Below are positions 10,680 to 30,297 of a stretch of 64,000 nt of DNA, piece by piece. The notes beneath the pieces are model-generated. The model had not been told where the DNA came from, made no database searches, and saw nothing but the letters and a program-made list of their open reading frames with translations. Location of the stretch: contig JBHJGM010000003.1 in NCBI GenBank assembly GCA_050331815.1, forward strand, positions 231,855 to 295,854, read 5' to 3'. Source of the stretch: Opitutales bacterium. GTDB taxonomy: Bacteria; Verrucomicrobiota; Verrucomicrobiia; Opitutales; JBHJGM01. Position numbers and translations under genes: made by a program. The first letter of the stretch is position 1; each line of letters begins with the position of its first letter.

Positions 10680-11477
10680 TCAACCCGTGCCCAGGAACGC
10701 CGTCAAGGGGCTGGTCGCTTCCGCCTGCACCGAGGGTCCTTCAAGACCGATGTGATAGGCCTCGCGTCCGGCTTCAACGGCCTTGGCAAAGGCCTGACCC
10801 ATGGCGCTGGGATCGCTGGCTACTGCGACAGCTGTGTTAATAAGCACCGCATCCGCCCCCAGTTCCATGGCCTCCGCAGCGTGCGACGGTCGCCCCAGCC
10901 CGGCATCGACAATGACCGGTACGCGCGCCTGCTCGATGATGATCGAAATCTGGGCGCGGGTCTCCAGGCCACGGTTGGAGCCGATCGGCGAGCCCAGGGG
11001 CATCACAGTTGCGCAGCCCACATCCTGCAGCCGGAGCGCCAGGACGGGATCCGCGTTGATGTAGGGCAGCACGGTAAAGCCTTCCTTCACGAGGATCTCC
11101 GCCGCCTTGAGCGTCTCGATGGGGTCCGGCAGCAGGTAATTGGGGTCGGGATGGATCTCGAGTTTGACCCAGTTGGGCAGCCCGGCGGCCACGGCGAGGC
11201 GGGCCAGGCGCACGGCTTCGTCTGCGTCCATGGCCCCGGCCGTGTTGGGCAGCAGCAGGTAACGATCGGTCTCAAAATAATCGAGAATGTCCGCAAAGGG
11301 GTCTTTCGTAGTGCCCAGGCTGGCTCGCTTGAGCGCCACGGTGACCAGCTCGGTGCCACAGGCGGCGAGCGCTTCGCGCATCAGGGCGTGACTGGAAAAT
11401 TTCCCGGTACCGACCAGCAGGCGCGAGTTGAACGCGCGCCCGGCGATGGTCAGGGGAGTGTCGTTTCTCTGCGACAT
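10680..11477 (-). CDS. thiG: Thiazole synthase ThiG
   Basis: [19 protein letters not shown].., VLPYINADP and [13 protein letters not shown] are canonical ThiG motifs. Confidence 0.9.
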
Positions 11478-11876: not shown

Positions 11877-12104
11877 AAAAGCTTAGACTAGCTAAGTGTA
11901 AGGGTCAGTACAAGCTGCATTTACTCTGAGAACGGATTCTCTGGGGCCTGGCGCTTCCAAGCGGCAGATCGGATTCGCCCGAAGCACTCAGCTGGTCTCT
12001 TAGGAAAAAGCTTCTAGCGGAAGGCAGGAGAGAGGCGAACTTTGCCTCGGCATCCGCAAATAGACTTGCCAGTGGCCGATGCCGCCCACTGCACTGCATC
12101 GCTT

Positions 12105-13928: not shown

Positions 13929-14249
13929 ATGCAATCTATCCTTTTCCTGACCTGCCTACTGGTTGCGTCTGACACAGTCCTTGCTTCGAGCGAGGAACCT
14001 GTGGCGGCGACGCATTTGGTTGCTCTGAGTGAACCTGCCGAAGCTATCGTCGTCAGCTCAAACATCGGTGACACGGCGTCGACACCTACGGGTGCTGTCG
14101 CCGAAGACTCGGTGGGCCTTGCCAGCTTACTTGGCGCGCTGCCCGGAGTGGACGACAACCTCGAGCCCTCGATATACGCACTGGCTTCGGCGTTTATCTT
14201 TCTGGGGCTGGTAGCGGTGCGTCGCCTGCGTCGGCCCAAAATGTTCTAG
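13929..14249 (+). CDS. Small secreted PEP-CTERM-tailed protein (106 aa)
   Basis: Signal peptide MQSILFLTCLLVASDTVLASS, then an acidic Ser/Thr/Ala-rich middle region. The C-terminus LEPSIYALASAFIFLGLVAVRRLRRPK has the (P)EP-S motif + TM helix + Arg cluster of a PEP-CTERM signal. Confidence 0.65.
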   Translation: MQSILFLTCLLVASDTVLASSEEPVAATHLVALSEPAEAIVVSSNIGDTASTPTGAVAEDSVGLASLLGALPGVDDNLEPSIYALASAFIFLGLVAVRRLRRPKMF

Positions 14250-15439
14250 GTCAGCCCGACTGCGACGGGCTCGCTGTATTCGTGTCGGCACGCCTGCTGT
14301 CGCAAGGGTTGCTGGGTAACCGCAGCTGCGTCTGCGTTCGTTTGATTGCCCCGGGCGTCCAAGTACTCGGGAAACGCTTCCAACGCCTGCTCGAAGCAAT
14401 GCAGGGCCTCGGTTTCCCGGCCAAGGTTTCTCAGAGAGACTCCGAGGTTGTTCAGGGTCTCTGGGGTGGGTAGACGCTCCTGCGCGGATTGGAATCGATG
14501 GTGCGCTTCTGCCCAATCGCGTAGGCTTAGCGCCAGCACCCCGAGCATAAAATCAATTCGCCAACCCTCCGGGCGTGGCATTGGGCCCTCCGGCTCCAGA
14601 ATGTGGTTGCGTTCGGATTCGGGCAGCCTGTCGAGCTCTTCGAGCATCCTCCGAAGCATAGGAAAGTCCTCTCGAAAGGAGGCCATGGAAAGCAGCGCCC
14701 ATTGTGCAACCCGCTCCGAATACCCGGCTTCGCGGTAAAGTGTTTGGACGGCTTCATAATCGAAACTGCGCAGGGATTCCGCCGTGGTTCGACGCATGCG
14801 GTCGAGATTGCGGGAAACGCTGCCGGGGTAGGCGCACATGCGGTAGCCAATTTCCGGCAGCAGCGCCACGGGTACTCGCGCCACGGCTGCCCGCAGCAGC
14901 AGATCGCTGTCCTCGGCGGATTCCAGGTTCAGTCGGTAACCCAGTTCCTTGGCCACCTCGCGGCGAATTGCGATCTGACCGGCTCCGGGCAGGTAATTGC
15001 GCTCAAACTGGCGCACCAGCCAGCGGTCGCGAAACATAAATGGCGGGATCTGTGCCTCGCGCAGAAAGCGGTCCGAAGGCCCGTCGAAAAGCGCCACGCC
15101 GTCGCTGGCGATGCCTGCTTCGTGAGTCTCCAGAGCGCTAAGGAGACGACGGGTGCGGCCCGGCAAAAAGGCATCGTCTGCGTCGAGCCAAATGCCGCAA
15201 TCGGTTTCCAGCGCCTCGAAACCCGCCTGACGGGTCAGCGCCAGCGTGCGGTGGGCTGGCGGCTGAACCACTCGAAGGGGCCGCGTACCGGCGGCTGCTC
15301 GGGCGTTGGCCACGGTGGCATCCGAAGAAAAATCATCGATCAGGATGATCTCGGCGATCGGTTCCTCCACCACGGAGCGTACCGCACGGCCAATGGTTGG
15401 GGCCGCATTGCGGGCGGCTATGAGTACGGTCGCCTCCAT
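14246..15439 (-). CDS. Family 2 glycosyltransferase with C-terminal TPR-like region
   Basis: VLIAARNAAPTIGRAVRSV..IILIDDFSSDAT plus a DADD (DxD) motif. The C-terminal LNNLGVSLRNLGRETEALHCFEQALEAFPEY is TPR-like. Confidence 0.8.
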   Translation of the reverse strand: MEATVLIAARNAAPTIGRAVRSVVEEPIAEIILIDDFSSDATVANARAAAGTRPLRVVQPPAHRTLALTRQAGFEALETDCGIWLDADDAFLPGRTRRLLSALETHEAGIASDGVALFDGPSDRFLREAQIPPFMFRDRWLVRQFERNYLPGAGQIAIRREVAKELGYRLNLESAEDSDLLLRAAVARVPVALLPEIGYRMCAYPGSVSRNLDRMRRTTAESLRSFDYEAVQTLYREAGYSERVAQWALLSMASFREDFPMLRRMLEELDRLPESERNHILEPEGPMPRPEGWRIDFMLGVLALSLRDWAEAHHRFQSAQERLPTPETLNNLGVSLRNLGRETEALHCFEQALEAFPEYLDARGNQTNADAAAVTQQPLRQQACRHEYSEPVAVGLT

Positions 15440-15452
15440 GCGTGGGTGTGGT

Positions 15453-16919
15453 TCAATCCTGGTCCAATCCGATTACGGTAGGCATCGGACAGCGCGCGGA
15501 TCGATAAATCGAAGCCAGGCGCGCCCGCATTTGAGCACCAAATTCGCGCGAACCCAGCAGGATGCTTTCAGGCCGCAGGGAGTTGGGCAGTGCGCTGGGC
15601 TCGTGAATGTACAGGCCGGAGTACGCACGCCCTTGCTGCAGTGGATCCGCGTCCACAAAACCATCGATACTCAACCCCCCGGAGGCGCAGCGATCCGCCA
15701 GCGAGCGCCCAAAATTACCGGCCCCGTAGATAAAGGTAGGCGTTTCTGGCGAGACGGTGAGGACGCGCTGCAACAACGTTTCTACCGCTGCTTCCTGCGG
15801 GGAAAGCTCCGGGATTTGAAAGGCCTTGGGCAACGGCTGCGCAAAACAGGCGCTGGCGATTCGCTGGAAAGCCTCACGATGGGCTGCCTCGCCGCGCTGA
15901 GATAAAATTCGCGCCCGGGCTGCCGTTTTCAGCCGCTCGAGTCTGGGGCGGTTGCGGTGAAGATCTGCAAGCACTTCGGCCATCGCTGTCGTATCGCCCT
16001 GGGGAACCAGACAGCCGGTTTCGTCCTCGATGACCACTTCATCCACACCCGAGTCGATTTTCATGACGACCGGGCACACACGTGCGGCCATGGCTTCGGC
16101 GAGGGCCAGAGGGTTGCCTTCGTAGGCCGAGGTCAACAGGCAGACATCGGCCCGGGCCAAGTGTTCGGCAACCGCCTCTGGAGGCACGCGCCCGATGAAG
16201 CGTACGTGTCCCGATTCCAGCAAGCCGGCAGTGACAAAGGCCTGGGGCAAGCGGTGCTCCTCGGGTCCGGCCCCAACCACTTGCAGTGTGAAAGGTACGT
16301 CCATTGCTTTCAGGCGGTGCGCAACCTCCACCAGACGGCTGACCCGCTTCTGCGTTTCCTCCAGCCGCCCCACGTAAACCAGGCGCAGGGGCTGAGTTGA
16401 ATCGAGGCCCGCGGCAGAGCTATGCGCGGACTCGGGCTGGGGGTAGGGCAGCGTGTGCAAGCGCCGGCGAGCTTCCGCGCTGAATTTCTGGGAAAGTCGT
16501 TCGGTCAGGTGCTCGCTGACGGCGATGATGCCCGCAAAGAGCGCTTCGTAATGTTTGAGGATGAGCCCGGTGTTGGGGTCGTCGTTGTGCGCAAAGCCCA
16601 GGAAGCGCACGCTTGGGTGGTCAGGGTGGGCCAGCAGCCAGAGCCGTGCCGCTTCGTGAGCGGTCTGGCCTGCGTTGGGCAGGATCAGCGCCGGCGTATC
16701 GGGGGCTTCGTTCACCCAGTTTTCGATGGCCTCGACGATTTTCTCCGGCTGGTGCGCCTGGCCTTCCGGCAGTCGACGGCAACGTGTATCCAAGGGCAAC
16801 GCGGCGCCCCCCAGTTGCAGGATCTCGACCGTGGGAAACGTGCGATGCAGCCAGCGCCCGTAGGTGGTGACCCCGCTGACTTGCCAATCGGCTTGGTCGA
16901 TAAAAAGGGTACGCATCAA
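15453..16919 (-). CDS. GT-B (GT4-like) glycosyltransferase with C-terminal PglD_N-like Rossmann half-domain
   Basis: GT1/GT4 C-terminal signature RLVYVGRLEETQKR..FIGRV..LLTSAYEGNPLALAEAMAA. The tail is FIYGAGNFGRSLADRCASGGLSIDGFVDADPLQQGRAYSGLYIHEPSAL. Confidence 0.8.
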   Translation of the reverse strand: MMRTLFIDQADWQVSGVTTYGRWLHRTFPTVEILQLGGAALPLDTRCRRLPEGQAHQPEKIVEAIENWVNEAPDTPALILPNAGQTAHEAARLWLLAHPDHPSVRFLGFAHNDDPNTGLILKHYEALFAGIIAVSEHLTERLSQKFSAEARRRLHTLPYPQPESAHSSAAGLDSTQPLRLVYVGRLEETQKRVSRLVEVAHRLKAMDVPFTLQVVGAGPEEHRLPQAFVTAGLLESGHVRFIGRVPPEAVAEHLARADVCLLTSAYEGNPLALAEAMAARVCPVVMKIDSGVDEVVIEDETGCLVPQGDTTAMAEVLADLHRNRPRLERLKTAARARILSQRGEAAHREAFQRIASACFAQPLPKAFQIPELSPQEAAVETLLQRVLTVSPETPTFIYGAGNFGRSLADRCASGGLSIDGFVDADPLQQGRAYSGLYIHEPSALPNSLRPESILLGSREFGAQMRARLASIYRSARCPMPTVIGLDQD

Positions 16920-17008: not shown

Positions 17009-19153
17009 GTGACGGTAGAGACCATCGCATCGCTGCCCGCAGCACATACGCGACACTCTCCGGAGCCAGGTTGCCGTATCGACAAGGCGCGCATTTCGCC
17101 TGCCGCGTTTGCGGGCTTCCTGGCCTCTGGGTGTGGGGCTGCGCTGCGCCATCTTTTCTCCGAGCCTGCGCTAGTTTCTGAACAGCCGCTAAACGCTGCC
17201 ATGCAGGAGGCCTGGGAAGCGCTGTTTGGCTGCCTGCCGCAATTTTCGCCCACCGATGCGCAAGGCCCCCGCGTGCTCAGCTTGGAGGCATTTGCCGCAG
17301 ACGCGCCGACAGACCGGTGCGTACTCAGCCTGCTGGGCGCAAATCGGGAAGCGGCTGGACGCGCCCTGCTGCGTTGGGGTCCGCAGCCGCAAATCCATTT
17401 TCTGAGCGAATTCACGCCCGATGAATTGAGTACTTGCCTGACGGCGCCCTGGGCCGAGACGCTGCCCGCTCGCTGGCTCCGCATGGACGTGGATCTGCCC
17501 GGCGAAATCTGCGCACGAGGGCAACCCGCCGATACGCTCTGGCTGCACGATACAGTAAACCCCAGGGCGCTGGAGCTGCTGTTTGAGACTCTGGATGCGT
17601 CTGGTGGAGATGGGCAGATCCCTTTGCGTGGACGATCACTTCGCCCGGAGGCAAACGCGCTCCACGAAGCCGCCCAAGGAATCGCCGCGGCCGAACGAGT
17701 GGTGATTGACTGTAAGCTTCCGGCTTTGGAGTTCTGGACCATCCGGGTCTGCGTGCAGTTGCAAAAGCCCTTTTTACTTCGGGAGGGACTGCAAGCATCG
17801 CCCACGCGCTACGCCGCTTTCGAACAAGGACCAGAGCTTTTGCAGCAGGATTGCCTGAAGCTGCGTGCCTTACTGGCGCGTTTGGAATCCAGTGACAGCG
17901 ATTTCATGCGCATGTGTGGCGAGTCCGCTCCGTCGCCTGAAGCGATCGAGCTTGGAGCGGACTTCGAAAAAGAGGTACCCATCGATTGGTTTTTGCGCCG
18001 GGCACGCCTGCGCAAGGAACTGCCCGGCAGCACGGTCCACTGGCTTTCCAACGCGTATACGCGGAGGCAACTGCTCGGTCTGGCGGCGGCCTCGACCACG
18101 TGGCGTCACTGGCTGTGCGAGCTCGAATTCACGATGGAGCGCTGCGTGCACGGCATCCTCCCGGAGTCGTACTTGAGGCGTATCTTCAATCAGGATACGC
18201 AGGGCTGTCTGGCGACCCTGCGAGCACTTTGTCCGGCGGGTTCAGGCAGGGTGCAGGACGAAGCCAGTTGGCCCTATCGCGTTTTCGATCTGGCTTTCAT
18301 CACAAGCGCCCAAAGGCAATCCCTGGGTGACTGGGAAACCTTCGGAGCCCTCGCGGGAGAGTTGCTCGTCAGTCGATCCGAGCCGGAGACCAACTCCCGT
18401 GCCCAGCAGGCGCTTCTGGCTTCCGCGTACCTGGCCGGTGCCGGGGTATCCGTCGACGGCCTTGAGCCTCAACTTGTTTTGGAGCGCTTCACCGGACCTT
18501 GGCTGCCTGCGTTATACGATGCCAGTGTGCGAACGATAGCGCGTCCAGTGGCCAAACGGTTGAGGACGTTTTTCGAAGCGCACGGCTATCCCGGCAAGGA
18601 TGGGCTGGAGCAGTCCTTCCGCCGTGCCTGGCTGGAGCTGTGGGAGGGGGCCTGGGATCGGGTGGTCGCAGGTGGCCTGGCCCTGAGCGAAGAATCCACC
18701 GAGGCTGCAGCGGCCTTTCAATTGAAGCTGGCGGACAGTCTGCTCTTGTGCGGACAGGTCGACCCGGCGCAGCGGCTGACGCAGGCCATCGCGCTTGAGA
18801 CCGTACAAGGCAGCCTGGATGCGCTGCGGCTGGCGGTCATCCGTCTGGCTGCGGGGGATCCCGAACGAACCCGCACGTGTCTTGCACAACTGCTCGAAGC
18901 ACTCGGCCCTGGTGATGAAAACATCGGGCTCAACGCGGGTTTTGCGCGGTTTTTCTGGCTGCTGTTCGAAGGCGTCGAAGCAGGCCTGGGCGCGACCTGG
19001 AGTCCGAGCTACGCCGCGCACGAACCAGAGTTGCTTGAACGCATACGGCTTAACCTTGGGTCACATTGGCCGAACGAGATCGCTGCTCCACATCGAAACG
19101 AAATCGACGCGCTCAGCCAGCGGCTGGTCTTTGTGCCACCCGCGGCAAATTGA
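17009..19153 (+). CDS. Large hypothetical protein (714 aa), no recognisable domain
   Basis: 2.1-kb ORF with GC-rich third positions, divergent from the GT4 gene. Its TGA overlaps the ATG of the next gene (TGATG). The start at GTG 17009 is uncertain. Confidence 0.6.
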   Translation: MTVETIASLPAAHTRHSPEPGCRIDKARISPAAFAGFLASGCGAALRHLFSEPALVSEQPLNAAMQEAWEALFGCLPQFSPTDAQGPRVLSLEAFAADAPTDRCVLSLLGANREAAGRALLRWGPQPQIHFLSEFTPDELSTCLTAPWAETLPARWLRMDVDLPGEICARGQPADTLWLHDTVNPRALELLFETLDASGGDGQIPLRGRSLRPEANALHEAAQGIAAAERVVIDCKLPALEFWTIRVCVQLQKPFLLREGLQASPTRYAAFEQGPELLQQDCLKLRALLARLESSDSDFMRMCGESAPSPEAIELGADFEKEVPIDWFLRRARLRKELPGSTVHWLSNAYTRRQLLGLAAASTTWRHWLCELEFTMERCVHGILPESYLRRIFNQDTQGCLATLRALCPAGSGRVQDEASWPYRVFDLAFITSAQRQSLGDWETFGALAGELLVSRSEPETNSRAQQALLASAYLAGAGVSVDGLEPQLVLERFTGPWLPALYDASVRTIARPVAKRLRTFFEAHGYPGKDGLEQSFRRAWLELWEGAWDRVVAGGLALSEESTEAAAAFQLKLADSLLLCGQVDPAQRLTQAIALETVQGSLDALRLAVIRLAAGDPERTRTCLAQLLEALGPGDENIGLNAGFARFFWLLFEGVEAGLGATWSPSYAAHEPELLERIRLNLGSHWPNEIAAPHRNEIDALSQRLVFVPPAAN

Positions 19154-20376
19154 TGGAGCGCGGCACCACACCCGACGTCATGCCCAGCGTTTATCTGCAT
19201 CTGGAAAACATCTGTAACCGTGTCCTGCTGGACGTGGAAAAAATCCGCAGCTACCTCATCAGCAACGGCTGCACGCTGACGCAGGATCGGGCCCGCGCCG
19301 ACAAGGTGCTGCTGGTGGGTTGCGCCTTTAACAACTACACCGAAACCGAATCAAAAAAGCGCCTGGATGAGTTTCTCGCCGAGAAAGCGCCAGCTCAGGA
19401 TATTTTTGTGCTCGAAGGGCTCGCCGACACCATGGGCCAGCGTCTGGCCAAGGAGGGCGTGCTGGATAAAAGCCGGATTATCCGGACCGGGCGCTACGGG
19501 GACCTAGACCCGGTCTTTGCGAAAAATCAGGCATTTTCAGAAACCCCCGAGGCCAACTTCTGGGGGCAGTACGCCACCGGCGCGGGCAACGCTACGGGCA
19601 CCTGCTGCTCGCACCGCAAGGGCGTTGGAACTTTCGACCGCTACGCCGTTCAGGTGGGCCACGGGTGCAACGATCGTTGCGCATTTTGCGGCGACAAAGT
19701 CGTGGTGAAGCACATTCGCAGCAAGCCGCTGGAAGATTGCCTGCGCGAGGTGCAACAGGGACTGGCGCTGGGCTATCAGCACATCGACCTGATCGGGGAT
19801 GATGTGGGTGCCTGGGGCATCGACCGCGATAAGTGCATTCTCGATTTGTTACGGCCCATCGTGGCGCTGGAGGGCGAATTCCAGCTCTGGATGGAGGAAC
19901 TCAATTTGAAGTACCTAGTGCGGCACCGCGCGGATTGGCCAGCTCTCCTGGAGACCGGACGCTTTCGGCGCATGGCGGTGGCCTTTCAGAGCGGGAACAC
20001 CCGAGTGCTGGAACTGATGCGGCGCGGCTACACACGCGAGGAGTTGCTGGATGTGGTTGCGCTGCTGCGCACCTACGACATCGAGCTGCATGGTCACGTC
20101 ATCATTGGCTTTCCCACCGAAACGCGCGAGGAGTTCGAGGAGTCCTTTGCAGTGATCGAAGCGGGCGGCTTTGCTAGCGTGAGCTTCTTTTTGTACCAGG
20201 ACCGCACGAACGCACCGGCCCACCGGATCGAGCCGAAAGTAGCGGAAGACGAAAAGCTCGAGCGCCTGGGTATCGCTGAAAAGCACTTTCGCGAGTTGGG
20301 CTACGGGGTGACGCGCCGGCCCGACAAGTTGCAAATTCTGCGCACGGAGGCCGCCCATGTCCCAAGCCCTGTGTGA
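19153..20376 (+). CDS. MiaB/RimO-like radical-SAM methylthiotransferase-family protein lacking a TRAM domain
   Basis: N-terminal UPF0004-like segment LENICNRVLLDVEKIRSYL..ADKVLLVGCAF. Radical-SAM motif GHGCNDRCAFCG, followed by RSKPLEDCLREV and IIGFPTETREEFEES. Only ~40 aa follow the core. ATG 19153 was chosen over the longer ORF from 19066. Confidence 0.75.
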   Translation: MERGTTPDVMPSVYLHLENICNRVLLDVEKIRSYLISNGCTLTQDRARADKVLLVGCAFNNYTETESKKRLDEFLAEKAPAQDIFVLEGLADTMGQRLAKEGVLDKSRIIRTGRYGDLDPVFAKNQAFSETPEANFWGQYATGAGNATGTCCSHRKGVGTFDRYAVQVGHGCNDRCAFCGDKVVVKHIRSKPLEDCLREVQQGLALGYQHIDLIGDDVGAWGIDRDKCILDLLRPIVALEGEFQLWMEELNLKYLVRHRADWPALLETGRFRRMAVAFQSGNTRVLELMRRGYTREELLDVVALLRTYDIELHGHVIIGFPTETREEFEESFAVIEAGGFASVSFFLYQDRTNAPAHRIEPKVAEDEKLERLGIAEKHFRELGYGVTRRPDKLQILRTEAAHVPSPV

Positions 20377-22714
20377 GCCTACCGACCCTGCCTTTTACGA
20401 GGCGGAGTATCGCGAATACTGGAACCGTCCCGACCGCTGGAACACAGATTCCTTCGAAGACGCCGACACCATCGCGGCGACGATCCTGCGCACCTGCGGG
20501 CCGGGTGCGGTGCTGGATGTCGGGTGCGGGATGGGATCACTGGTCAAGGCGCTGCTCAAACTGGGACTCGATACCCACGGGCTCGACGTCACCGAACGCA
20601 CGGTCGCCCACGGCAACACGTTTTCTCCGGGCCGCTTTCACCTGGGCTCAGCCCTGAAGCTGCCTTTCGAGGACGGGGCCTTCGATACACTGGTTTCGAC
20701 CGACTGCCTCGAGCACATCGCCGCCGAGCATCTACCGCAGGTCTTGCGGGAGTTCCGGCGCGTGGCCAGGCGAAACGTTTACGTCCGCGTGGCGACTACC
20801 CCCGACCGTGACCGCCGCTGGCACCTGACTGTGCAGCCGCGGGCCTGGTGGGAGCAGCAGTTCATCGATGCCGGCTTCCTGCGCCATCCGCGCCTGTTGC
20901 AAGTGCGCAACTTCTGCGATCTCGGCGCGGATGACTGGAATGTTTCCATGCTCTGGCAAAAGACGGGCACCCAGTTGGCGGCTTCGACGGGTAATGGCTT
21001 TTTGGACGTCGTCGGCGGCGAGGCCGAAGCTGCCCTTGCCCGACTGGTGCAAGCCGCCGAGACCCTGCGACCGAACGACCGTGCGCTGGTGGTCGGTCCG
21101 CGGGCAGCGCACGCGGCAATTGTACTGAGCGAACTGGCTCAGGTTGACACCGTCAGCGCGTACCACACGCCTGATAGCATCGATGCTGACGGCGTCTGGG
21201 ACTGGATTTTTCTGGAGGTAGCTCAAGCGGATCTCCCGTTGTATCAGAATCTATGTACGCGCCTGGTGCCAGGGGGACGTCTGGTGCTAAGTCTGGCCGA
21301 AGCCGAACACTCTGGCCAGACCCCCGGCAGCGTGCTGGAGTCATTTCCAGACCTGCACGGCGAAAAGGCTTGGCGTATCGCTTTGGCGGATACGGCGCAC
21401 CAGCCTCCGTTGCCCCGGCGGCAGGATCGTATCGATCTGCAATCGAAGCTCACTTCCAGCGTGCAAAGCTGGGTTGTCGCCATTGGTCTGAAAGACCCCT
21501 TCGCGGGCTCTCCCGAGGCCTACACACAGCGCATCTATCCGCAGCTGAATTTGACTGGGTTGAACCTCAAAGCTTTCGAGCGCGACTACGAAAACCCCTG
21601 GCTGGTTAATGCCCTGGTTGTCTGGGGGCAACGGGCCGATAACGACGCGTTGCTCAAGTCCCTGGCCGAACGTACGCTGGCGGACGCATCGGCAGCCGGC
21701 GCTGCGGACCGTGGCGCGGCTTTGTGCGTACTGCTATATCGCGAGCTGGAAAACGTTTCAGCGGATGAAAAAGCCGCGCGTAAGCGACTTGCGGAAGTCG
21801 AAAATTATCTGACCACGCCCGCCCAAAATCCACACCAACTGCGCTGGCGCATTTCGCTGGAGTTTGCCTCCGCCTGTCTGCTGCAAGCCCTCGGCGAACT
21901 CGCAGAAGCCGAGAACCGCTTTTTCACCTGCAGCCAACGGGATGCCGGCGCGTTCAGCCCGCTGCTGGGGACCAAGACCGTCGCCGCCGCCTTCAAGGCC
22001 GGTTGGCTGGCAGCATGTCAGGGAAATCTGGATACAGCTCGCGAGCGCTGGCAGTGGGGGATCGAATCGGCGCAGGGTCTCTGCCAGGGCTCGTGGTTTG
22101 AGATTCTTGGGAAAGCCTGCGACCCGTATCCCTGGGGTTTGATGGAACTGCAGGAAGTCCTTGGCTGGGCTCAGCGCTGTGCGCAGGCGCTGGAGGGCAG
22201 CAAGCAGTTTGAGCGTAGCCCCGCGCGGTTGGCGGCTTGCGTGGAGTTTTCGCTGGCCCAGCGAGAGAAAGCCCAGCTGACGACCCTGCGCGAGTTGCAG
22301 CTTGGTGCAAGCCAGGCCGGGCAGCGTATCCACGAGTTGGAGACAGAGGTGCGCGATCAGGTGCGGCAGCTACGCCAGCTCTGGCAACAGCGTATCCTTC
22401 GGGAATCGGCGCAGCGCGAGGTGCTCTTCTGGGGGGCGAGTGTCTGCGGCACGCACGCATTGGATTACTTAGAGCAGGCCTCCGGGCAGGTGAGCGGCTT
22501 TATCGACAAGGACCCCGCCAAAATCGGCACCGCTTTTCAGAAGCGCCCGGTCAACGCTCCGGACGTGTTGCAGGCCCTGGCTGTGAAACCATTTGTGGCG
22601 ATCACCTCTGTTCACGCGCCCGCCATCGCACGTGAACTGACCGAGGCGGGCTGGGTCGAGGAAACGGATTTTGCCAACCTCTTCGCGCCGGTCATGCGCT
22701 GGAAGCACATCTAG
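20357..22714 (+). CDS. Multidomain class I SAM-dependent methyltransferase (785 aa) with helical/coiled-coil region and C-terminal PglD_N-like module
   Basis: Motif I VLDVGCGMGSLVKALLKLGLDTHGLDV plus FDTLVSTDCLEHI. A second, degenerate Rossmann-like segment (RALVVGPRAAHAAIVL..PGGRLVLSL). Coiled coil (LQLGASQAGQRIHELETEVRDQVRQLRQL). Tail VLFWGASVCGTHALDYLEQASGQVSGFIDKDPAKIGTAFQKRPVNAPDVL. Confidence 0.75.
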   Translation: MSQALCEPTDPAFYEAEYREYWNRPDRWNTDSFEDADTIAATILRTCGPGAVLDVGCGMGSLVKALLKLGLDTHGLDVTERTVAHGNTFSPGRFHLGSALKLPFEDGAFDTLVSTDCLEHIAAEHLPQVLREFRRVARRNVYVRVATTPDRDRRWHLTVQPRAWWEQQFIDAGFLRHPRLLQVRNFCDLGADDWNVSMLWQKTGTQLAASTGNGFLDVVGGEAEAALARLVQAAETLRPNDRALVVGPRAAHAAIVLSELAQVDTVSAYHTPDSIDADGVWDWIFLEVAQADLPLYQNLCTRLVPGGRLVLSLAEAEHSGQTPGSVLESFPDLHGEKAWRIALADTAHQPPLPRRQDRIDLQSKLTSSVQSWVVAIGLKDPFAGSPEAYTQRIYPQLNLTGLNLKAFERDYENPWLVNALVVWGQRADNDALLKSLAERTLADASAAGAADRGAALCVLLYRELENVSADEKAARKRLAEVENYLTTPAQNPHQLRWRISLEFASACLLQALGELAEAENRFFTCSQRDAGAFSPLLGTKTVAAAFKAGWLAACQGNLDTARERWQWGIESAQGLCQGSWFEILGKACDPYPWGLMELQEVLGWAQRCAQALEGSKQFERSPARLAACVEFSLAQREKAQLTTLRELQLGASQAGQRIHELETEVRDQVRQLRQLWQQRILRESAQREVLFWGASVCGTHALDYLEQASGQVSGFIDKDPAKIGTAFQKRPVNAPDVLQALAVKPFVAITSVHAPAIARELTEAGWVEETDFANLFAPVMRWKHI

Positions 22715-22731: not shown

Positions 22732-24078
22732 ATGATTTACGATCCAGCCGAAACTGAAATTCGCCTGAACCCGAGCGGCGAAGGCACCGGTGTCGCGCGC
22801 GCCGCGTACGATGCGGGTCGCCCGGAAAAAGCTCTGGGTGCGCTCTGCCATGCGCCGTTCGTGGGGCTGGATTTTTCGCCTACGGGCCACGTCACGGTCT
22901 GCAACCACTTCCATCAATCGCTGGCTCAAGTGGATGAAGACTTTTCCATTCTGGAGTTCTGGCGCGGTCCGGCGCTGAAGGCACTGCGGCAATCGATGCG
23001 GCAGTATCGGATCAATCCCGAGCACTGTCGCCACTGCGCCTATCAGATTCAGGCCCGTAGTTTTACGGAAACCTTCGCGCGTGCGCAGTACGATGTTTCA
23101 GCAACGGGCGATTTCGACCCGCCGTATCCGCGCCGGATGATCTTTCGCCTCAACAACACCTGCAACCAGGCCTGCGTGATGTGCAGTGCGTCGACGTCCT
23201 CGCGATTCCGCAAGGAGGTCGAGGGTCTGCCGCTGGAGGCCTCGCGCTACGGCCCCAGGTTTTTCGCTGAGCTTGAGGAAATCCTGCCGCACCTGGAGCA
23301 CATCGAATTTTACGGCGGCGAGCCGTTTCTGGTGCGTGAACACCTGCGCATTTTCGAGCTGCTGGAGTCTACCCAGTCCCCTGCCACGCTTTACGTTAAC
23401 ACCAACGCCACGGCCCTCAACGCCCGCTCGAAGGGCTTTCTTGAGCGGCTCAACTTTACCTGCATCGCGGTCTCCATGGACGCCGTCAGCGCTCAGGTGC
23501 ATGAGACCGTACGCTTTGGCCTGAAGCAGGAGCGCTTCCTGGCCAACCTGGATTGGCTGCAAAAGCTGGCGCAGCGCCGGGGCATCTACCTGGTGCTCAA
23601 CGTAACCGAACACCGCAAGAACTGGTTCGAGCTACCACAGATTTTTGAGTTCGCCGTAACGCGCGATTTGCCCATCCACATCAACACCTGTGTGCACCCG
23701 GCCAACGTTACCCTCTACACCCTCGACGACGGGCACCTGCGCTATCTCGATGACTTTTTCACCCGCCATTTTGAGCGGTTGAGCGAGGCCTGGTCCGACT
23801 TCCGCAACCGCCCGGCCTACCAGCATTTGCTCAGCCTGGTGCGCGGGGAGCTCGACAAGCGAAACGCGGGTGAGCGAACGACTTCGTTTGGCCACTCCAA
23901 GCTCAGCGATGGTCTGCTGGCGGTCCCGCTGCCCGGCGAAGGCACCTTTGCCGAGCCGGCGGTCATCGACTTCGAACTGAGTCGGATGCGTGAGTTTTTG
24001 GACGAAGCGGAGTTCGAACGGATGGAACGCGGCCTGCGCGCGCGGGCGACCGCAGCGACTGAAACTTCAGTTGTATAG
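22732..24078 (+). CDS. Radical-SAM protein with N-terminal SPASM/twitch-like Cys motif
   Basis: The N-terminus CHAPFVGLDFSPTGHVTVCNHF..EFWRGPALKALR..EHCRHCAYQ has the C-x2-P..G-x4-C..C-x2-C SPASM/twitch pattern. It precedes the core motif LNNTCNQACVMC (CxxxCxxC) and FYGGEPFL. Confidence 0.75.
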   Translation: MIYDPAETEIRLNPSGEGTGVARAAYDAGRPEKALGALCHAPFVGLDFSPTGHVTVCNHFHQSLAQVDEDFSILEFWRGPALKALRQSMRQYRINPEHCRHCAYQIQARSFTETFARAQYDVSATGDFDPPYPRRMIFRLNNTCNQACVMCSASTSSRFRKEVEGLPLEASRYGPRFFAELEEILPHLEHIEFYGGEPFLVREHLRIFELLESTQSPATLYVNTNATALNARSKGFLERLNFTCIAVSMDAVSAQVHETVRFGLKQERFLANLDWLQKLAQRRGIYLVLNVTEHRKNWFELPQIFEFAVTRDLPIHINTCVHPANVTLYTLDDGHLRYLDDFFTRHFERLSEAWSDFRNRPAYQHLLSLVRGELDKRNAGERTTSFGHSKLSDGLLAVPLPGEGTFAEPAVIDFELSRMREFLDEAEFERMERGLRARATAATETSVV

Positions 24079-26154
24079 CAGCACGTGCTCGAGCTTAAGG
24101 TGCTGCAAGCGCTGGTGCATCTGCGTTTCCGCCGCGCGCGAGGAGTAGATCACGGTGTCGATGGATGCCGCGGGCAGGCACTCCGGGCTCCAGCAGGGCT
24201 TGCCTAGGAAGGTGCCGCCTGAACGGCGGTCGACAAAGCCCGCCAGTCCGTCGGCCAACCACGGGCACAGCAGCAGAAGTACCCGCGTGTGCTCGCCGAT
24301 GCCGTAGATGGCGATGCGCGCCTTGTGCGCCCCCCAGTCAGCCTTGCGTGCCAGCAAGCGATCGCGTGCGCCGAGCAATTCCCGAGAGAGCGGGACTGCC
24401 CCGTCTGCCGGGCACAAGGCAGCCAGCAGGTGGTAAATCGAGGACGGTGCTTTCACTTGCGAGAGCACCTGGATCAGCGGCGACAAATCGGGGCGACGGC
24501 CTGCCGGCAGGGCTCCGAGCGCTTTGACCTGATTGAGATCGAGCTTGGGTGTACCGCCCTGAGTACCGCGTTCAGTGCGAGCGGCAACGATCGGTGCGAC
24601 CGCAACCGTCTCGCCACGTAGCAGCAAACTGGATACGATCTCAGCGGGTATGGCGATTTCGCCAAAGCTGTCTTTCGAATCCGCGACGGCCACGGGTACA
24701 GCATACGCTTCCTTATCCAGCAGGAGCGTTTCCAAGTCGCAGGTCGTCGGCGCGCGCAGCAGGCCGTCTCCGCCGCCCGGCGCATCTTCCAGCACGAAGC
24801 CTAGCACGGCTTTTGCCTTCGATAAGGCGAGGGCATCTTTCAAATTTGCCTCAGCGGTTTCATCCAGGCAGACCGACCGGGGTAGGTGGACACGGGCAGA
24901 CGCGGAGGCGTCTCCGGGTTGGGCCGTTTGGATTGGCGGCTGCAGCCCGCGCATGAAAGATAACTGGCGGTCGTTCGCCTGATCCGCCTGAAAGCCCGTG
25001 CTGAAATCGACTTCCAGCCGGTCCTCGCGAAACACGGTTTCCAATTTCTCCTGGATGCCGCGCGTTGTCGGCATGCAAAGGAGGTGCGCGTTGGCCTCGC
25101 CAACGATCTCGGGGATGCCGCCCGCGCGCGTGGTCAGAAACGCCCGGCGGTTTTCAAAAAGCTCGATAACGGTAAAGGGGAGGTTGTCGAGGAGGCTTGG
25201 GGCAACGATGAGGCAGTTTTCGCGGGTTCGTAAAAGTTCCCAGACCTGCTGCGAGTCGAGGTTGCTTCGAATTTCCCAACGATTTGAAAAATGCGGTTCC
25301 AGGCTTGCTTGAATCACTTGGTCCGCCGGTCGACCGAGGACGGTCTCGGGTTTTCCCAGAAAGGTGATCTGGCGCACCTTTTCCTGAAGCAGCGTCGAGC
25401 GTTCCAGCGCCTGCAGAAAAAAGTGCAGCCCCTTGCGGGTTTCCAGCCGCCCGAAAAAAATCAGATCGCGAAACCCGCTGAAGCACGTCTTTGCACCTGG
25501 AGTTTGTGTAGGCTCGAAGGCGTAGGGAACCACGGTGATGCGCTCGCGTGGATGCTTCCAATGTGCGGCCATCCAGTCGGCCATGTGCGCCGAGGGCGCG
25601 GTCACGTTTTCACATAGCAGCGCCGAATGCCGCTCCATGTGGTGAATCTGCAGCGCACGGGCACCGGAAAAAGACTGCCGCATGCCCTGATAAGTCCAGC
25701 GCAGCGGACCATGCGCGGTCAGGGCGCAGCGCGTGTTCTCGAGCCCGAGCCCGGCCGCACGGTACTGCAGGCTACGCAGGCCGTGACCCAGAAACTCCTG
25801 AAAAAGCAGCGTGCGAAAAGGCTGTTTTTTTAGAAATTCCAGCACCTTGAGCGACTGGCGCATCTCGTCGCCGTCGGGCTGAAGCGCGTATCGATCGAGC
25901 TCGGGAGCATGCTTCGCGCACCATTCGTTGAGGTCTACGTACTTCAGGCCGTGCGCGCGCAAAAAATGACCCTGCCAGTAAGCCGGCATCTCTACGTTGG
26001 TGCGCCCGGTGTACAGGACGGTGATGTCTTCTCCGGCGCGTGCCAACAGGAGCGCTTGCCAGTAGCAGGCGGTTCCGACGCCGCCATTACGGTAAGGCCC
26101 GACAAATTCCGGCGCGATCAGGCAAACCGGCGAGATCCCCCTCGTGTCCTCCAA
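24067..26154 (-). CDS. GT-B glycosyltransferase, paralog 1, with long C-terminal extension ending in a PglD_N-like module
   Basis: CLIAPEFVGPYRNGGVGTACYWQA.., LIFFGRLETRKGLHFFLQAL, APSLLDNLPFTVIELFE..RAGGIPEIV. Tail IAIYGIGEHTRVLL..GFVDRRSGGTFLGKPCWSPECL. The ORF runs to 26379, but an in-frame TTG at 26154 gives M-EDTRGISPVCLIAPEF. That parallels the paralog start MEAGTCIVAPEF and avoids overlap with the divergent gene. Confidence 0.72.
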   Translation of the reverse strand: MEDTRGISPVCLIAPEFVGPYRNGGVGTACYWQALLLARAGEDITVLYTGRTNVEMPAYWQGHFLRAHGLKYVDLNEWCAKHAPELDRYALQPDGDEMRQSLKVLEFLKKQPFRTLLFQEFLGHGLRSLQYRAAGLGLENTRCALTAHGPLRWTYQGMRQSFSGARALQIHHMERHSALLCENVTAPSAHMADWMAAHWKHPRERITVVPYAFEPTQTPGAKTCFSGFRDLIFFGRLETRKGLHFFLQALERSTLLQEKVRQITFLGKPETVLGRPADQVIQASLEPHFSNRWEIRSNLDSQQVWELLRTRENCLIVAPSLLDNLPFTVIELFENRRAFLTTRAGGIPEIVGEANAHLLCMPTTRGIQEKLETVFREDRLEVDFSTGFQADQANDRQLSFMRGLQPPIQTAQPGDASASARVHLPRSVCLDETAEANLKDALALSKAKAVLGFVLEDAPGGGDGLLRAPTTCDLETLLLDKEAYAVPVAVADSKDSFGEIAIPAEIVSSLLLRGETVAVAPIVAARTERGTQGGTPKLDLNQVKALGALPAGRRPDLSPLIQVLSQVKAPSSIYHLLAALCPADGAVPLSRELLGARDRLLARKADWGAHKARIAIYGIGEHTRVLLLLCPWLADGLAGFVDRRSGGTFLGKPCWSPECLPAASIDTVIYSSRAAETQMHQRLQHLKLEHVLLYN

Positions 26155-26248
26155 GATGTGCGCATGACAGAACAGCGCCCGCCCGCCTGGCAAGCGAATT
26201 TGCCGACAGACCCTAAGCAGTTGCCCACGCGGGTCGATTCTCGCTGCT

Positions 26249-27757
26249 ATGGCTTTTGGCGCGCGCAGCGAACTCACTCGGGCTTTGTACCTTTGCGGGG
26301 AGCCCATCGCCGTTGGTAAAACCGGGCAATTGCTGCGCGAAGCCGGCATCGACTTTGAAGGCTGGCTGAGCCTGCCCAATCCCGGGGACGCAGCCAGCAG
26401 CGCGCGTCACCTTGAGGCCCGCCTCGCGGCCAACCCAGACCGCTACAATGGTGTGCAATGGATGCCGTGTTTCAGCGAGGCGGCGGATTTCATCCGTTTT
26501 CATGACGCGGTGCGAGCGTCGGATGTCTTGGCCGGATTGCGCTTGCTGCATCCGGCCTGGCTGCTGCGCTGGAATCCGGCAGCCAAAGCCTCGGGCATAC
26601 TTTTCACCGGCTTTTGGAGTTCGGGAAACACGATTCAGGGCGTGTTGCTGGATCAGCTTTGGCGCCAACGCGAAGCGCAGACCCGTCCTACGCCAGCAGT
26701 ACTGCAGTGTCGCCAATTGGCCCAGCAGTTTCAGGAGTGCCTGCGGATTTTTCAGGAACGCGCTTTCGTCGACAGTGGCCTGACCGACTTGCGCATCCGC
26801 AGTCACGAGCATTTTTGGCTGGGCAGTCTCTACGGTTTCGATGGTAACCACGGAGTCGTTGTGGGCCCGTTTGAGCATCGCCGTCCCTTCTGCGGCGAGT
26901 TTCTTTCCGGTCACTTTTGCGAGGAAGACGTCAGCGCCGATTCGCTACAGGCCTTGGGCTTGGAGCCCTGGCTGGCACTGAGGCACCCTCTCGACGTACT
27001 GTGCTCGCTGGCGGCGAAAACCACCTTCGAGAGCGATCGCCTGCCCAACCCGCCCGACCGCCTTAAGTTGCGCCAGGCCCGTCTGTCCTCGGTGGATTGG
27101 TTCCAGGCGCAATGCCGGCGTCTGGCCGATTATCTGGCAGGCTTTGCGCACCAGAATGCCGCCTGGAACCTGGCGCGTTTTGAAGCGCTCAATGCCAATC
27201 CCGAGCGCTGGATTTTTGCGGCGGCACGGCGGCTGGGCAGTGACTGCTCGGTGGCGGGCGCACGCGAGCTTTGGAACCGCTTTGGCTCGCGTCCGCTGTA
27301 CCCGGCCTGGCAATCCCACCACACGCCCCAGGCCCAGCGCCGTTCCTGGCAGGGCCTGCTGACCGAAGCGCATTTGGATTGTGCACGTGAGCACGGGCTG
27401 GAGTCCATGGCGTGTACCCTGGGTTATGGGGCCTTTAAGGAAACGCCGCTGCAACCCATGTGCGAAGCGCCAAAACTCGGTGAAGCCACCCCTGCAGACC
27501 GCGCGCAGATGGAACAGGTGGATCTCGATAAGCGCTCGGTACCGATTCGCGTGGGTAACCGTTCACTACGCCTGGAGTTCTGGGGTGGGGGCCCACGACC
27601 GTTGCTGGAAAAACGACTGCGCACGCCGGAACGCTGGCGCTTTATCGGGCTACTCGACCCGGATTTCGACATGGCCGCCGCGCCGGTCGAGTTGAGGGCG
27701 AATTCACGCCCAACGCAAAGTGTTCAGGAGTCAGCCTCGAATCCTTCGTCTGTGTAA
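26249..27757 (+). CDS. Hypothetical Trp/Arg-rich protein (502 aa), no recognisable domain
   Basis: 1.5-kb ATG-initiated ORF with GC-biased third positions. It is divergent from GT paralog 1 and its 3' end overlaps GT paralog 2 by 34 nt. The competing antisense ORF 26213-26914 degenerates into Arg-rich sequence. Confidence 0.55.
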   Translation: MAFGARSELTRALYLCGEPIAVGKTGQLLREAGIDFEGWLSLPNPGDAASSARHLEARLAANPDRYNGVQWMPCFSEAADFIRFHDAVRASDVLAGLRLLHPAWLLRWNPAAKASGILFTGFWSSGNTIQGVLLDQLWRQREAQTRPTPAVLQCRQLAQQFQECLRIFQERAFVDSGLTDLRIRSHEHFWLGSLYGFDGNHGVVVGPFEHRRPFCGEFLSGHFCEEDVSADSLQALGLEPWLALRHPLDVLCSLAAKTTFESDRLPNPPDRLKLRQARLSSVDWFQAQCRRLADYLAGFAHQNAAWNLARFEALNANPERWIFAAARRLGSDCSVAGARELWNRFGSRPLYPAWQSHHTPQAQRRSWQGLLTEAHLDCAREHGLESMACTLGYGAFKETPLQPMCEAPKLGEATPADRAQMEQVDLDKRSVPIRVGNRSLRLEFWGGGPRPLLEKRLRTPERWRFIGLLDPDFDMAAAPVELRANSRPTQSVQESASNPSSV

Positions 27758-30074: not shown

Positions 30075-30149
<75 letters not shown>

Positions 30150-30220
30150 CGGCTGTGCCGTGGGTCTCTCCTAACGAGAAGCCCTTAGCACCTATCGCCC
30201 AGCATGCGTATCGATTAAAG

Positions 30221-30297
<77 letters not shown>

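What the first reader, a model, noticed from the sequence alone, without database searches (positions are those of the whole stretch)
19153..20376. Methylthiotransferase-like radical-SAM enzyme without a TRAM domain, embedded in a glycosyltransferase cluster
The protein has an MTTase-style N-terminal Cys domain (LENICNR.., ADKVLLVGCAF). It has the CxxxCxxC core (GCNDRCAFCG) and the IGFPTETREEFEES segment typical of MiaB, RimO and MtaB. It ends about 40 aa after the core, so it lacks the TRAM RNA-binding domain.

Characterised MTTases act on tRNA or on ribosomal protein S12. A TRAM-less member whose start codon overlaps the stop codon of a 714-aa unknown, inside a GT cluster, suggests a different substrate. 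That substrate could be a glycan, lipid or protein, but this is inference.
Basis: partly seen in the sequence, partly recalled or inferred. Interest (0 to 1): 0.6.

Follow-up and report, generated by a model that had tools for sequence, protein, structure and literature searches.

The report
TRAM-less MiaB-like radical SAM, methyltransferase-coupled
This gene encodes a radical SAM enzyme descended from the tRNA/ribosome methylthiotransferases that has lost the RNA-binding TRAM domain and one iron-sulfur cysteine, and it travels with a SAM methyltransferase in sugar-decoration gene islands, so it probably performs an uncharacterised modification of a surface glycan.

Summary
ORF 19153-20376 (+) encodes a 407-aa protein with a MiaB/RimO-type fold, an intact CX3CX2C radical-SAM core and no TRAM domain, inside a GT2/GT4 island.

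The interpretation needs two corrections.
- Only two of the three N-terminal cluster cysteines are present. The third is Gly here, and in 34 of 40 representatives carrying the same "CGDK" motif. It therefore fails the published MTTase definition and every curated MTTase HMM cutoff.
- The upstream 650/714-aa protein is an ORFan, not a conserved partner.

The conserved partner is the downstream class-I SAM methyltransferase. It is fused or within 800 bp in 12 of 17 related loci and within 2.6 kb in 15 of 17. The nearest relatives are natural MTase-rSAM fusions.

The clade is rare (17 loci in about 185,000 species genomes), phyletically patchy and under purifying selection. It sits among GTs, Maf-like proteins, sulfotransferases and SPASM/twitch rSAMs.

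Best reading: it is the radical half of a two-enzyme glycan-tailoring module. The chemistry is unknown, and canonical one-enzyme methylthiolation is unlikely. This is a new variant of a known kind with no characterised member.

The parts
19153..20376 (+). The MTTase-derived radical SAM enzyme, 407 aa, with no TRAM and no third auxiliary-cluster Cys. It is identical to an NCBI protein named 'MAG: radical SAM protein [Opitutales bacterium]'.
   Evidence: AF2 model pLDDT 89.4. Foldseek top hits are MtaB, MiaB and RimO, TMq 0.72-0.75.
19186..19527 (+). N-terminal UPF0004-like flavodoxin-type domain (about aa 12-125). C21 lies at 19213-19215 and C57 at 19321-19323. E88-G89 (19414-19419) occupy the place of the canonical G-C (Cys3).
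   Evidence: Pfam UPF0004 covers aa 21-101. Model secondary structure has beta3 at 83-87 and helix 88-100.
19666..19698 (+). Radical SAM cluster motif C172-x3-C176-x2-C179, followed by the clade-specific G-D-K (aa 180-182).
   Evidence: D181-K182 are present in 33 of 34 clade representatives; canonical MTTases have [IV][IV]P here.
20302..20343 (+). C-terminal beta-hairpin (aa 384-397) with the conserved D391-K392. It aligns with the first strands of the TRAM barrel; the rest of TRAM is absent.
   Evidence: D-K in 30 of 32.
20357..22714 (+). The conserved partner: a 785-aa protein overlapping the rSAM gene by 20 nt. Domain order is an active class-I SAM methyltransferase (motif I VLDVGCGMG), a degenerate second MTase fold, a helical repeat region, a long helix and a small C-terminal alpha/beta module.
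22732..24078 (+). Second radical SAM protein of the operon, with an N-terminal twitch/SPASM-type domain (448 aa), starting 17 nt after the methyltransferase gene.
   Evidence: Pfam Radical_SAM and SPASM. NF033640 N_Twi_rSAM scores 155.9 bits, cutoff 170. SPASM/twitch rSAMs recur in relatives' loci and one is fused in P0133.
17201..19153 (+). Upstream 650-aa ORFan (714 aa if started at 17009). Its stop overlaps the rSAM start by one base. It is lineage-specific and not a conserved partner.
   Evidence: Codon-position GC is like the neighbouring genes.
14246..16919 (-). Divergently oriented GT2+TPR (14246-15439) and GT4 (15453-16919) glycosyltransferases, forming the left part of the island.
24067..30006 (.). 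Right part of the island: GT4 770 aa (24067-26379, -), an unknown 502-aa ORF (26249-27757, +) and the paralogous GT4 760 aa (27724-30006, -).
30075..30297 (-). tRNA-Met (30075-30149) and tRNA-Asp (30221-30297) directly flank the island on the right. purH (12042-13658) lies on the left.

Best explanation
The gene encodes a functional radical SAM enzyme from a distinct, uncharacterised offshoot of the methylthiotransferase lineage. The clade is TRAM-less, carries the motif CxxxCxxCGDK, and has Gly in place of the third Cys of the N-terminal auxiliary-cluster site.

It is the radical half of a two-part tailoring module. The other half is a class-I SAM methyltransferase, which here is the next gene, overlapping it by 20 nt.

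Shown:
- MTTase fold and an intact radical-SAM cluster motif.
- Loss of TRAM and of Cys3.
- Strict conservation of Cys1 and Cys2 and of many polar residues.
- Purifying selection.
- Near-universal adjacency or fusion to a methyltransferase.
- Embedding in glycan-decoration islands.

Inferred:
- The radical-SAM cluster cleaves SAM to a 5'-deoxyadenosyl radical.
- The radical abstracts hydrogen from an unactivated carbon of a sugar residue, probably on the glycan built or capped by the neighbouring GTs and the capping-type methyltransferase.
- The remodelled two-Cys N-terminal site takes part in functionalising that radical.
- The partner methyltransferase methylates the same residue before or after that step.

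Because the three-Cys site is broken, it is probably not a self-sufficient methylthiotransferase. Any methyl-transfer half-reaction is more likely handed to the partner.
For: Fold and core:
- AF2 model has pLDDT 89. Foldseek hits to MtaB, MiaB and RimO have E about 1e-21 and TMq 0.72-0.75.
- CX3CX2C and the GFPTET motif are invariant.

Distinct clade:
- TIGR00089 scores 165.8 bits against a cutoff of 251, and the four equivalogs score 102-120 against 315-357.
- In an NJ tree, TRAM-less proteins split from canonical MTTases with 80% bootstrap, and the Cys3-less clade is nested inside the TRAM-less proteins.

Motif statistics:
- 40 representatives at 50% identity carry the D-K motif.
- 34 of these 40 have Gly at the Cys3 position; the other 6 keep Cys.
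- In the 34, C1 is present in 31 of 31, C2 in 33 of 33 and D181-K182 in 33 of 34.

Partner methyltransferase:
- It is fused or within 800 bp in 12 of 17 close loci and within 2.6 kb in 15 of 17.
- Natural fusions are MTase+TPR+rSAM (P0121), MTase+rSAM (P0122) and MTase+GT4+WsaF+rSAM (P0129). P0121 and P0122 are the window protein's nearest tree neighbours.

Glycan context:
- Fusions to a sulfotransferase (P0128, L011) and to GT29 (P0141).
- Neighbours include GT2/GT4, Maf/MptE-like proteins, sulfotransferases, WcbI, GSCFA and dTDP-sugar genes.
- The partner family also occurs next to Wzm and Wzt(Wzt_C) and in MotAB/Maf islands.
- The partner's fold resembles tandem MTases and the sugar MTases RebM and KijD1.

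Not housekeeping and not decaying:
- 17 loci in 185,579 species genomes, across many phyla.
- dN/dS is 0.11 for L011 against L012.
Against: - No member has been characterised, and no substrate, product or cofactor content is known.
- Methyltransferases are common in glycan loci, and no formal background rate for adjacency was computed.
- The window island has no export, initiation or sugar-precursor genes, so the target glycan is unidentified, and a protein or lipid target is not excluded.
- Cys1 and Cys2 remain invariant, so some metal or cluster site may persist, and sulfur chemistry is not ruled out.
- Model coordinates could not be inspected, so the geometry of C21, C57 and E88 is inferred from alignment only.
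- Bootstrap support for the exact Cys3-less set is low (20%).
Confidence: 0.6

Rival explanations
1. It is a genuine methylthiotransferase, installing -SCH3 by the MiaB/RimO mechanism on a non-RNA, non-S12 substrate such as a glycan, lipid or protein.
For: - MTTase fold and a UPF0004 hit above the Pfam cutoff.
- Cys1 and Cys2 are invariant with the canonical X35 spacing.
- Glu88, in 27 of 34 representatives, could in principle supply a third ligand.
- Basal relatives with the same D-K motif still keep Cys3 (P0016, P0134, P0141, P0145).
Against: - The defining Cys-X35-36-Cys-X32-33-Cys motif is incomplete (PMC5352715). The Cys3 position is Gly in all 34 clade representatives, and Glu88 is Gly in 7 of them, so no conserved third ligand exists.
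- No other conserved Cys is present.
- A separate methyltransferase is almost always attached, which a self-methylating MTTase would not need.
Confidence: 0.15
2. The module modifies a protein residue (for example on flagellin, pilin or an S-layer protein) or a lipid, rather than a sugar.
For: - RimO shows that the scaffold can act on a protein.
- TPR domains occur in the neighbouring GT2 and in fusion P0121.
- Maf-like flagellin glycosyltransferase homologs and flagellar export or motor genes lie beside some loci.
- The window island lacks polysaccharide export and initiation genes.
Against: - Direct fusions are to sugar-acting domains: GT4, WsaF, GT29 and sulfotransferase.
- The partner family sits with Wzm and Wzt_C, a glycan-cap recognition system.
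- No candidate substrate protein or peptide gene is conserved next to it.
Confidence: 0.15
3. It is a truncated, mis-called or decaying copy of a housekeeping MiaB/RimO/MtaB gene.
For: The best database labels on some relatives are 'tRNA A37 methylthiotransferase MiaB'.
Against: - All equivalog scores are about one third of their cutoffs.
- Homologs from many phyla end at the same place.
- There is no room for a TRAM domain downstream.
- Clade-specific invariant motifs exist.
- dN/dS is 0.11.
- Distribution is patchy and rare.
Confidence: 0.02

Closest known systems
MiaB / MtaB / RimO radical SAM methylthiotransferases (TIGR00089; PDB 7MJV, 4JC0, 9A6D)
   Same: - Overall fold (Foldseek TMq 0.72-0.75).
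- N-terminal UPF0004-type domain followed by a radical SAM core with CX3CX2C.
- Cys1 and Cys2 with X35 spacing.
- GFP(G/T)ET motif.
   Different: - No TRAM domain.
- Cys3 is replaced by Gly.
- CGDK replaces C[IV][IV]P, and GDDVG replaces GQNV.
- Below every curated cutoff.
- Rare and patchy rather than near-universal.
- Glycan-island context with an obligate class-I methyltransferase partner.
- The known MTTase substrates are only tRNA A37 and S12 Asp (PMC10702137).
Uncharacterised TRAM-less, three-Cys MTTase-like proteins (the 'plateau' family, motif GCLPxI; e.g. P0147 Nanoarchaeota, P0200 Omnitrophota)
   Same: - About 400 aa and no TRAM.
- Same profile, scoring 250-290 bits.
- Below the TIGR00089 cutoff.
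- Some sit beside methyltransferases or polysaccharide genes (L019, L020, L024).
- They form one TRAM-less group with the window clade (80% bootstrap).
   Different: They keep all three auxiliary-cluster cysteines and lack the G-D-K and C-terminal D-K motifs. They are the better candidates for true non-RNA methylthiotransferases.
Terminal-capping methyltransferases of ABC-transporter-dependent glycan pathways (WbdD and WsaE type). This concerns the partner protein and is recalled from the literature, not tested against those sequences.
   Same: - Large multidomain class-I methyltransferase with a long helix.
- Encoded beside multidomain GTs.
- A family member lies immediately after Wzm and Wzt carrying the Wzt_C cap-binding domain.
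- P0129 combines MTase, GT4 and WsaF domains.
   Different: No kinase domain was detected. No direct sequence or structure match to WbdD or WsaE was obtained (one search returned generic MTases). The window has no Wzm/Wzt genes.
Sugar-acting radical SAM enzymes with an N-terminal Rossmann-like domain (AprD4 1,2-diol dehydratase, PDB 6FD2; B12-dependent class B methylases such as MgmA, PDB 9CCB)
   Same: - Second tier of fold matches (TMq 0.50-0.57).
- AprD4 is a precedent for this architecture acting on a sugar substrate.
- NCBIfam matches to B12-rSAM families cover the radical SAM core.
   Different: - Similarity is much weaker than to MTTases.
- No B12-binding domain hit.
- The N-terminal domain matches UPF0004 instead.

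Membership tests
Radical SAM methylthiotransferases (MiaB/RimO/MtaB/e-MtaB) | N-terminal UPF0004 domain with the Cys-X35-36-Cys-X32-33-Cys motif binding the auxiliary [4Fe-4S] cluster (PMC5352715) | tested here: not met
   C21-X35-C57 is present, but the third position is Gly89 (preceded by Glu88). The same holds in 34 of 40 D-K-motif representatives. No alternative conserved Cys exists.
Radical SAM methylthiotransferases (MiaB/RimO/MtaB/e-MtaB) | Central radical SAM domain with CX3CX2C | tested here: met
   C172, C176 and C179 are invariant. Pfam Radical_SAM scores 66.6 bits.
Radical SAM methylthiotransferases (MiaB/RimO/MtaB/e-MtaB) | C-terminal TRAM domain of about 60 residues | tested here: not met
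   No PF01938 or PF18693 hit. The TIGR00089 alignment stops at 357 of 429. The tail after R351 is 56 aa against 95-106 aa. Only a two-strand hairpin remains.
Radical SAM methylthiotransferases (MiaB/RimO/MtaB/e-MtaB) | Score at or above the curated family or equivalog cutoffs | tested here: not met
   TIGR00089 165.8 against 251; RimO 119.7 against 357; MtaB 118.5 against 357; MiaB 110.1 against 355; e-MtaB 101.7 against 315.
Radical SAM methylthiotransferases (MiaB/RimO/MtaB/e-MtaB) | MTTase three-dimensional fold | tested here: met
   Foldseek hits to 9A6D, 7MJW and 4JC0 with E about 1e-21 to 1e-22 and TMq 0.72-0.75.
Radical SAM methylthiotransferases (MiaB/RimO/MtaB/e-MtaB) | Catalyses methylthiolation (+SCH3) using two [4Fe-4S] clusters | not testable with these tools
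   This needs reconstitution, spectroscopy and product MS.
Cobalamin-dependent (class B) radical SAM methylases | N-terminal B12-binding domain (PF02310) | tested here: not met
   No PF02310 hit. NCBIfam B12-rSAM matches cover only the radical SAM core, aa 166-349.
TRAM-less 'CGDK' clade (defined here, uncharacterised) | CxxxCxxC-G-D-K; Gly at the Cys3 position; GDDVG; C-terminal P-D-K-L hairpin; adjacent or fused class-I methyltransferase | tested here: met
   All motifs are present in the window protein. The methyltransferase gene overlaps it by 20 nt. In the tree it is sister to the MTase-rSAM fusions P0121 and P0122.
Anti-phage defence systems (PADLOC) | Match to a defence-system protein model | tested here: not met
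   No hit for the rSAM. Neighbours give only generic MTase or rSAM domain matches.

The most novel reading that the evidence does not exclude
The clade and its methyltransferase form a split, two-enzyme system for a reaction not yet described on carbohydrates. The MTTase-derived radical SAM enzyme would use its remodelled two-Cys site, possibly holding a non-canonical Fe-S centre or a methyl- or thiol-carrying cysteine. With it, the enzyme would forge a C-S or C-C bond at an unactivated sugar carbon. The class-I methyltransferase would supply or complete the methyl transfer. The product would be a thio-, methylthio- or C-methyl-type cap on a surface glycan or glycoprotein.
Probability: 0.2. 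Interest if true: 0.8.

Novelty: new variant of a known kind. Interest (0 to 1): 0.55.

Why it matters
All characterised methylthiotransferases act on tRNA A37 or ribosomal protein S12 (PMC10702137).

This work defines a coherent, selected clade that has dropped both TRAM and one auxiliary-cluster ligand and is wired to a separate methyltransferase in glycan-decoration islands. It also reveals a much larger sister family of TRAM-less proteins that keep all three cysteines.

Together these give radical-SAM enzymologists concrete targets for new chemistry on carbohydrates. They also offer a natural experiment on how the MTTase auxiliary site evolves. In addition, they flag a likely unknown chemical modification on bacterial surface glycans or glycoproteins. 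No curated family model or paper covers the clade.

Tried and rejected
- **Housekeeping ortholog or truncated gene:** rejected.
- **The upstream 714/650-aa protein as functional partner:** rejected. It has no homologs, no Pfam or PDB match, and it is absent from relatives' loci.
- **Defence system:** PADLOC was negative.
- **Riboswitch or other RNA element controlling the operon:** Rfam found only three tRNAs. The promoter and terminator scans were no better than shuffles.
- **Nonulosonic-acid or flagellar genes in the window:** none. The rest of the window is housekeeping.
- **Literature:** searches for an 'MTL1' clade, MiaB-like enzymes in glycan or flagellin-glycosylation clusters, and thiosugar radical SAM enzymes gave nothing relevant.
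- **Tools unavailable:** the afdb50 fold library was not on the machine.
- **Method problem:** my greedy ORF caller lost the rSAM ORF in L005, L010 and L022. Those loci were scored instead.


Full report
**Observation.** Pfam detects Radical_SAM (66.6 bits) and UPF0004 (30 bits, just above the 27-bit cutoff) and no TRAM domain. The NCBIfam MiaB/RimO subfamily model aligns only to positions 9-357 of 429 and scores 165.8 bits, below the 251-bit cutoff. The four equivalog models (RimO, MtaB, MiaB, e-MtaB) score 102-120 bits against cutoffs of 315-357. The ATG shares one base with the upstream stop codon (TGATG). The next gene's ATG lies 20 nt inside the 3' end. That next gene is a methyltransferase from its N-terminus onward, and all homologs end at the same place, so no corrected gene model can supply a TRAM. 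The sequence is identical to an NCBI protein annotated 'MAG: radical SAM protein [Opitutales bacterium]'.

**Structure.** An AlphaFold2 model built on the clade alignment is confident (pLDDT 89.4, pTM 0.85). Its best PDB matches are MtaB, MiaB and RimO (E about 1e-21 to 1e-22, TMq 0.72-0.75). A second tier follows, made of B12-type radical SAM enzymes and the sugar diol-dehydratase AprD4 (TMq about 0.5-0.57). After the radical SAM core the model has one helix and a two-strand hairpin (aa 384-397), where canonical MTTases carry the TRAM barrel. The tail after invariant R351 is 56 aa, against 95-106 aa in TRAM-bearing relatives.

**The auxiliary-cluster cysteines.** A review defines MTTases by three features (PMC5352715):
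- a UPF0004 domain with Cys-X35-36-Cys-X32-33-Cys;
- a CX3CX2C radical SAM core;
- a TRAM domain of about 60 aa.

The window protein has C21-X35-C57, but the third position is Gly89, preceded by Glu88. A profile search of 1.84 billion representatives and motif tabulation show three tiers:
1. Canonical TRAM-bearing MTTases, with G-C at Cys3 and C[IV][IV]P after the SAM motif.
2. A large family of TRAM-less proteins of about 400 aa that keep Cys3 (GCLPxI). They score 206-235 bits on TIGR00089 and are unnamed in all sources.
3. A clade with CxxxCxxC-G-D-K and a C-terminal P-D-K-L.

In the third tier, 34 of 40 representatives have Gly at the Cys3 position and 6 keep Cys. In the 34, Cys1 is present in 31 of 31 and Cys2 in 33 of 33. 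Position 88 is Glu in 27 and Gly in 7, so no conserved third ligand exists.

A bootstrap NJ tree separates TRAM-less from canonical proteins (80%). It places the Cys3-retaining D-K proteins basal to the Cys3-less clade, whose exact boundary is weakly supported (20%). The window protein is sister to P0121 and P0122.

**Context in the window.** The island spans about 14.2-30.0 kb. In order it contains:
- GT2+TPR and GT4, on the minus strand;
- a plus-strand operon of the ORFan, the rSAM, a 785-aa methyltransferase fusion and an N-terminal-twitch radical SAM protein;
- GT4, an unknown ORF and a paralogous GT4.

It lies between purH and tRNA-Met/tRNA-Asp. The rest of the window is housekeeping: thiG/thiH, dinB, L25, dnaB, bamA, lpxD, prs, degP, lptFG and smc. 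No export, initiation, sugar-precursor or flagellar genes are present.

**Conserved partner.** The upstream 650/714-aa protein has no homolog other than itself, no Pfam or PDB match, and is absent beside relatives. Its codon-position GC looks coding.

The only protein that follows the rSAM is a class-I SAM methyltransferase. Among 17 close-clade loci it is fused or within 800 bp in 12 and within 2.6 kb in 15. Three independent fusion architectures join the two: MTase+TPR+rSAM, MTase+rSAM and MTase+GT4+WsaF+rSAM. More distant TRAM-less relatives also abut methyltransferases (L020, L025, and L024 with a TylF-type sugar O-MTase).

The relation is asymmetric. The partner's non-MTase region defines a small family of large MTase proteins, and this family also occurs without the rSAM. 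One member sits directly after Wzm and Wzt carrying the Wzt_C domain, next to a GT2+GT4 protein. Others sit in MotAB/Maf/sulfotransferase islands.

The partner's model (pLDDT 78) shows tandem MTase folds, helical repeats, a 50-residue helix and a small alpha/beta module. Its fold hits are di-domain N-methyltransferases and sugar O- and C-methyltransferases. In the window protein only the first MTase domain keeps motif I.

**Glycan theme.** Other fusions join the rSAM to a sulfotransferase (P0128, L011), a GT29 sialyltransferase-like domain (P0141) and a second rSAM/SPASM (P0133). Neighbours include Maf/MptE-like proteins, sulfotransferases, WcbI, GSCFA, C2185-like_N proteins, dTDP-sugar genes, a pyruvyl transferase and further SPASM/twitch radical SAM proteins.

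**Distribution and selection.** Only 17 loci were found among 185,579 species genomes. They are scattered over Acidobacteriota, Deferribacteres, Desulfobacterota, Planctomycetota, Bacteroidales, Gemmatimonadota and Kiritimatiellales, with one weak archaeal match. dN/dS is 0.11 for a 95%-identical pair. PADLOC is negative. Rfam finds only tRNAs.

**Interpretation.** The protein works like a radical SAM enzyme built on the MTTase scaffold, but it fails three of the defining membership tests: three-Cys motif, TRAM and curated score.

The best-supported model (confidence about 0.6) is the radical half of a two-enzyme module that tailors a sugar residue of a surface glycan or glycoprotein. Hydrogen abstraction by 5'-deoxyadenosyl radical, and methylation of the same residue by the partner, are inferred and not shown.

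The strict retention of Cys1 and Cys2 argues that the N-terminal site is still functional, but its nature is unknown. It could be a non-canonical Fe-S centre or redox or H-donor thiols.

| Reading | Probability |
|---|---|
| Canonical single-enzyme methylthiolation | about 0.15 |
| A protein or lipid target | about 0.15 |
| A decayed housekeeping gene | about 0.02 |

**Literature.** The held library has no paper on TRAM-less MTTase relatives in glycan loci. A 2023 study states that tRNA and S12 are the only known MTTase substrates (PMC10702137).

**Verdict.** This is a new variant of a known kind, and a good lead for enzymology, but its function is unproven.

Noticed in passing
window 15453-16919 (-), 20357-22714 (+), 24067-26379 (-), 27724-30006 (-): Four island proteins share a C-terminal module of about 80-100 aa: GT4_15453 aa 384-468, MTase fusion aa 678-777, GT4_770 aa 674-770 and GT4_760 aa 656-752. 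It weakly resembles the NeuD/PglD N-terminal domain. It could be a common docking or nucleotide-sugar-binding module.
   Followed up: partly
window 24067-26379 (-) and 27724-30006 (-): The two large GT4 proteins (770 and 760 aa) are paralogs, 43% identical over 417 aa plus the shared C-terminus.
   Followed up: no
window 30075-30149 (-), 30221-30297 (-); also 32395-32470 (+): tRNA-Met and tRNA-Asp abut the right end of the glycan island, and tRNA-Ala lies 2 kb further on. This placement is typical of a horizontally acquired island, although GC content does not differ from the flanks.
   Followed up: partly
window 17201-19153 (+): A 650-aa ORF with coding-like codon GC has no homolog other than itself among 5.8 billion proteins, and only a faint TPR signal at aa 542-575.
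   Followed up: yes
window 26249-27757 (+): A 502-aa ORF has no Pfam, NCBIfam or PADLOC match. Its first 130 nt overlap the 5' end of the divergent GT4 gene, so the true start is probably later.
   Followed up: no
window 20357-22714 (+); relatives P0268-P0284: The partner protein has tandem class-I MTase folds. In the window copy domain 1 keeps motif I and domain 2 has lost it. In several relatives (P0268, P0270, P0275-P0277) domain 2 is intact and domain 1 looks degenerate.
   Followed up: partly
P0147-P0262 (profile search hits); L020, L023, L024: A very large, unnamed family of TRAM-less MTTase-like proteins of about 400 aa keeps all three auxiliary-cluster cysteines (GCLPxI). Members include proteins from Nanoarchaeota and Omnitrophota MAGs. 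These are stronger candidates than the window protein for true non-RNA methylthiotransferases.
   Followed up: partly
L019 814-2031, L022 10001-11155: Bacteroidales and Prolixibacteraceae relatives keep Cys1 and Cys3 but have Ser at Cys2. This is a second, independent way of breaking the three-Cys site. They sit next to a pyruvyl transferase, a SPASM protein and sulfotransferases.
   Followed up: no
P0144 (1245 aa), P0161 (1019 aa): These proteins are multi-copy fusions. P0144 carries MurB_C plus two UPF0004 and radical SAM units. P0161 has three Radical_SAM stretches.
   Followed up: no
window 35577-36932 (-); 9444-10619 (-) and 10680-11477 (-): The window holds other radical SAM genes: a 451-aa protein with a marginal Radical_SAM hit (29.3 bits) and no UPF0004, and a ThiH-like BATS protein next to thiG. 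Neither is an MTTase.
   Followed up: no
L027 4802-9889; L028 1-16583: The partner-type large methyltransferase lies directly downstream of wzm and wzt (Wzt_C) in a Phycisphaerales contig. In another contig it lies between two motAB pairs with a Maf-like gene. The family therefore serves both polysaccharide capping and flagellar-glycan islands.
   Followed up: partly
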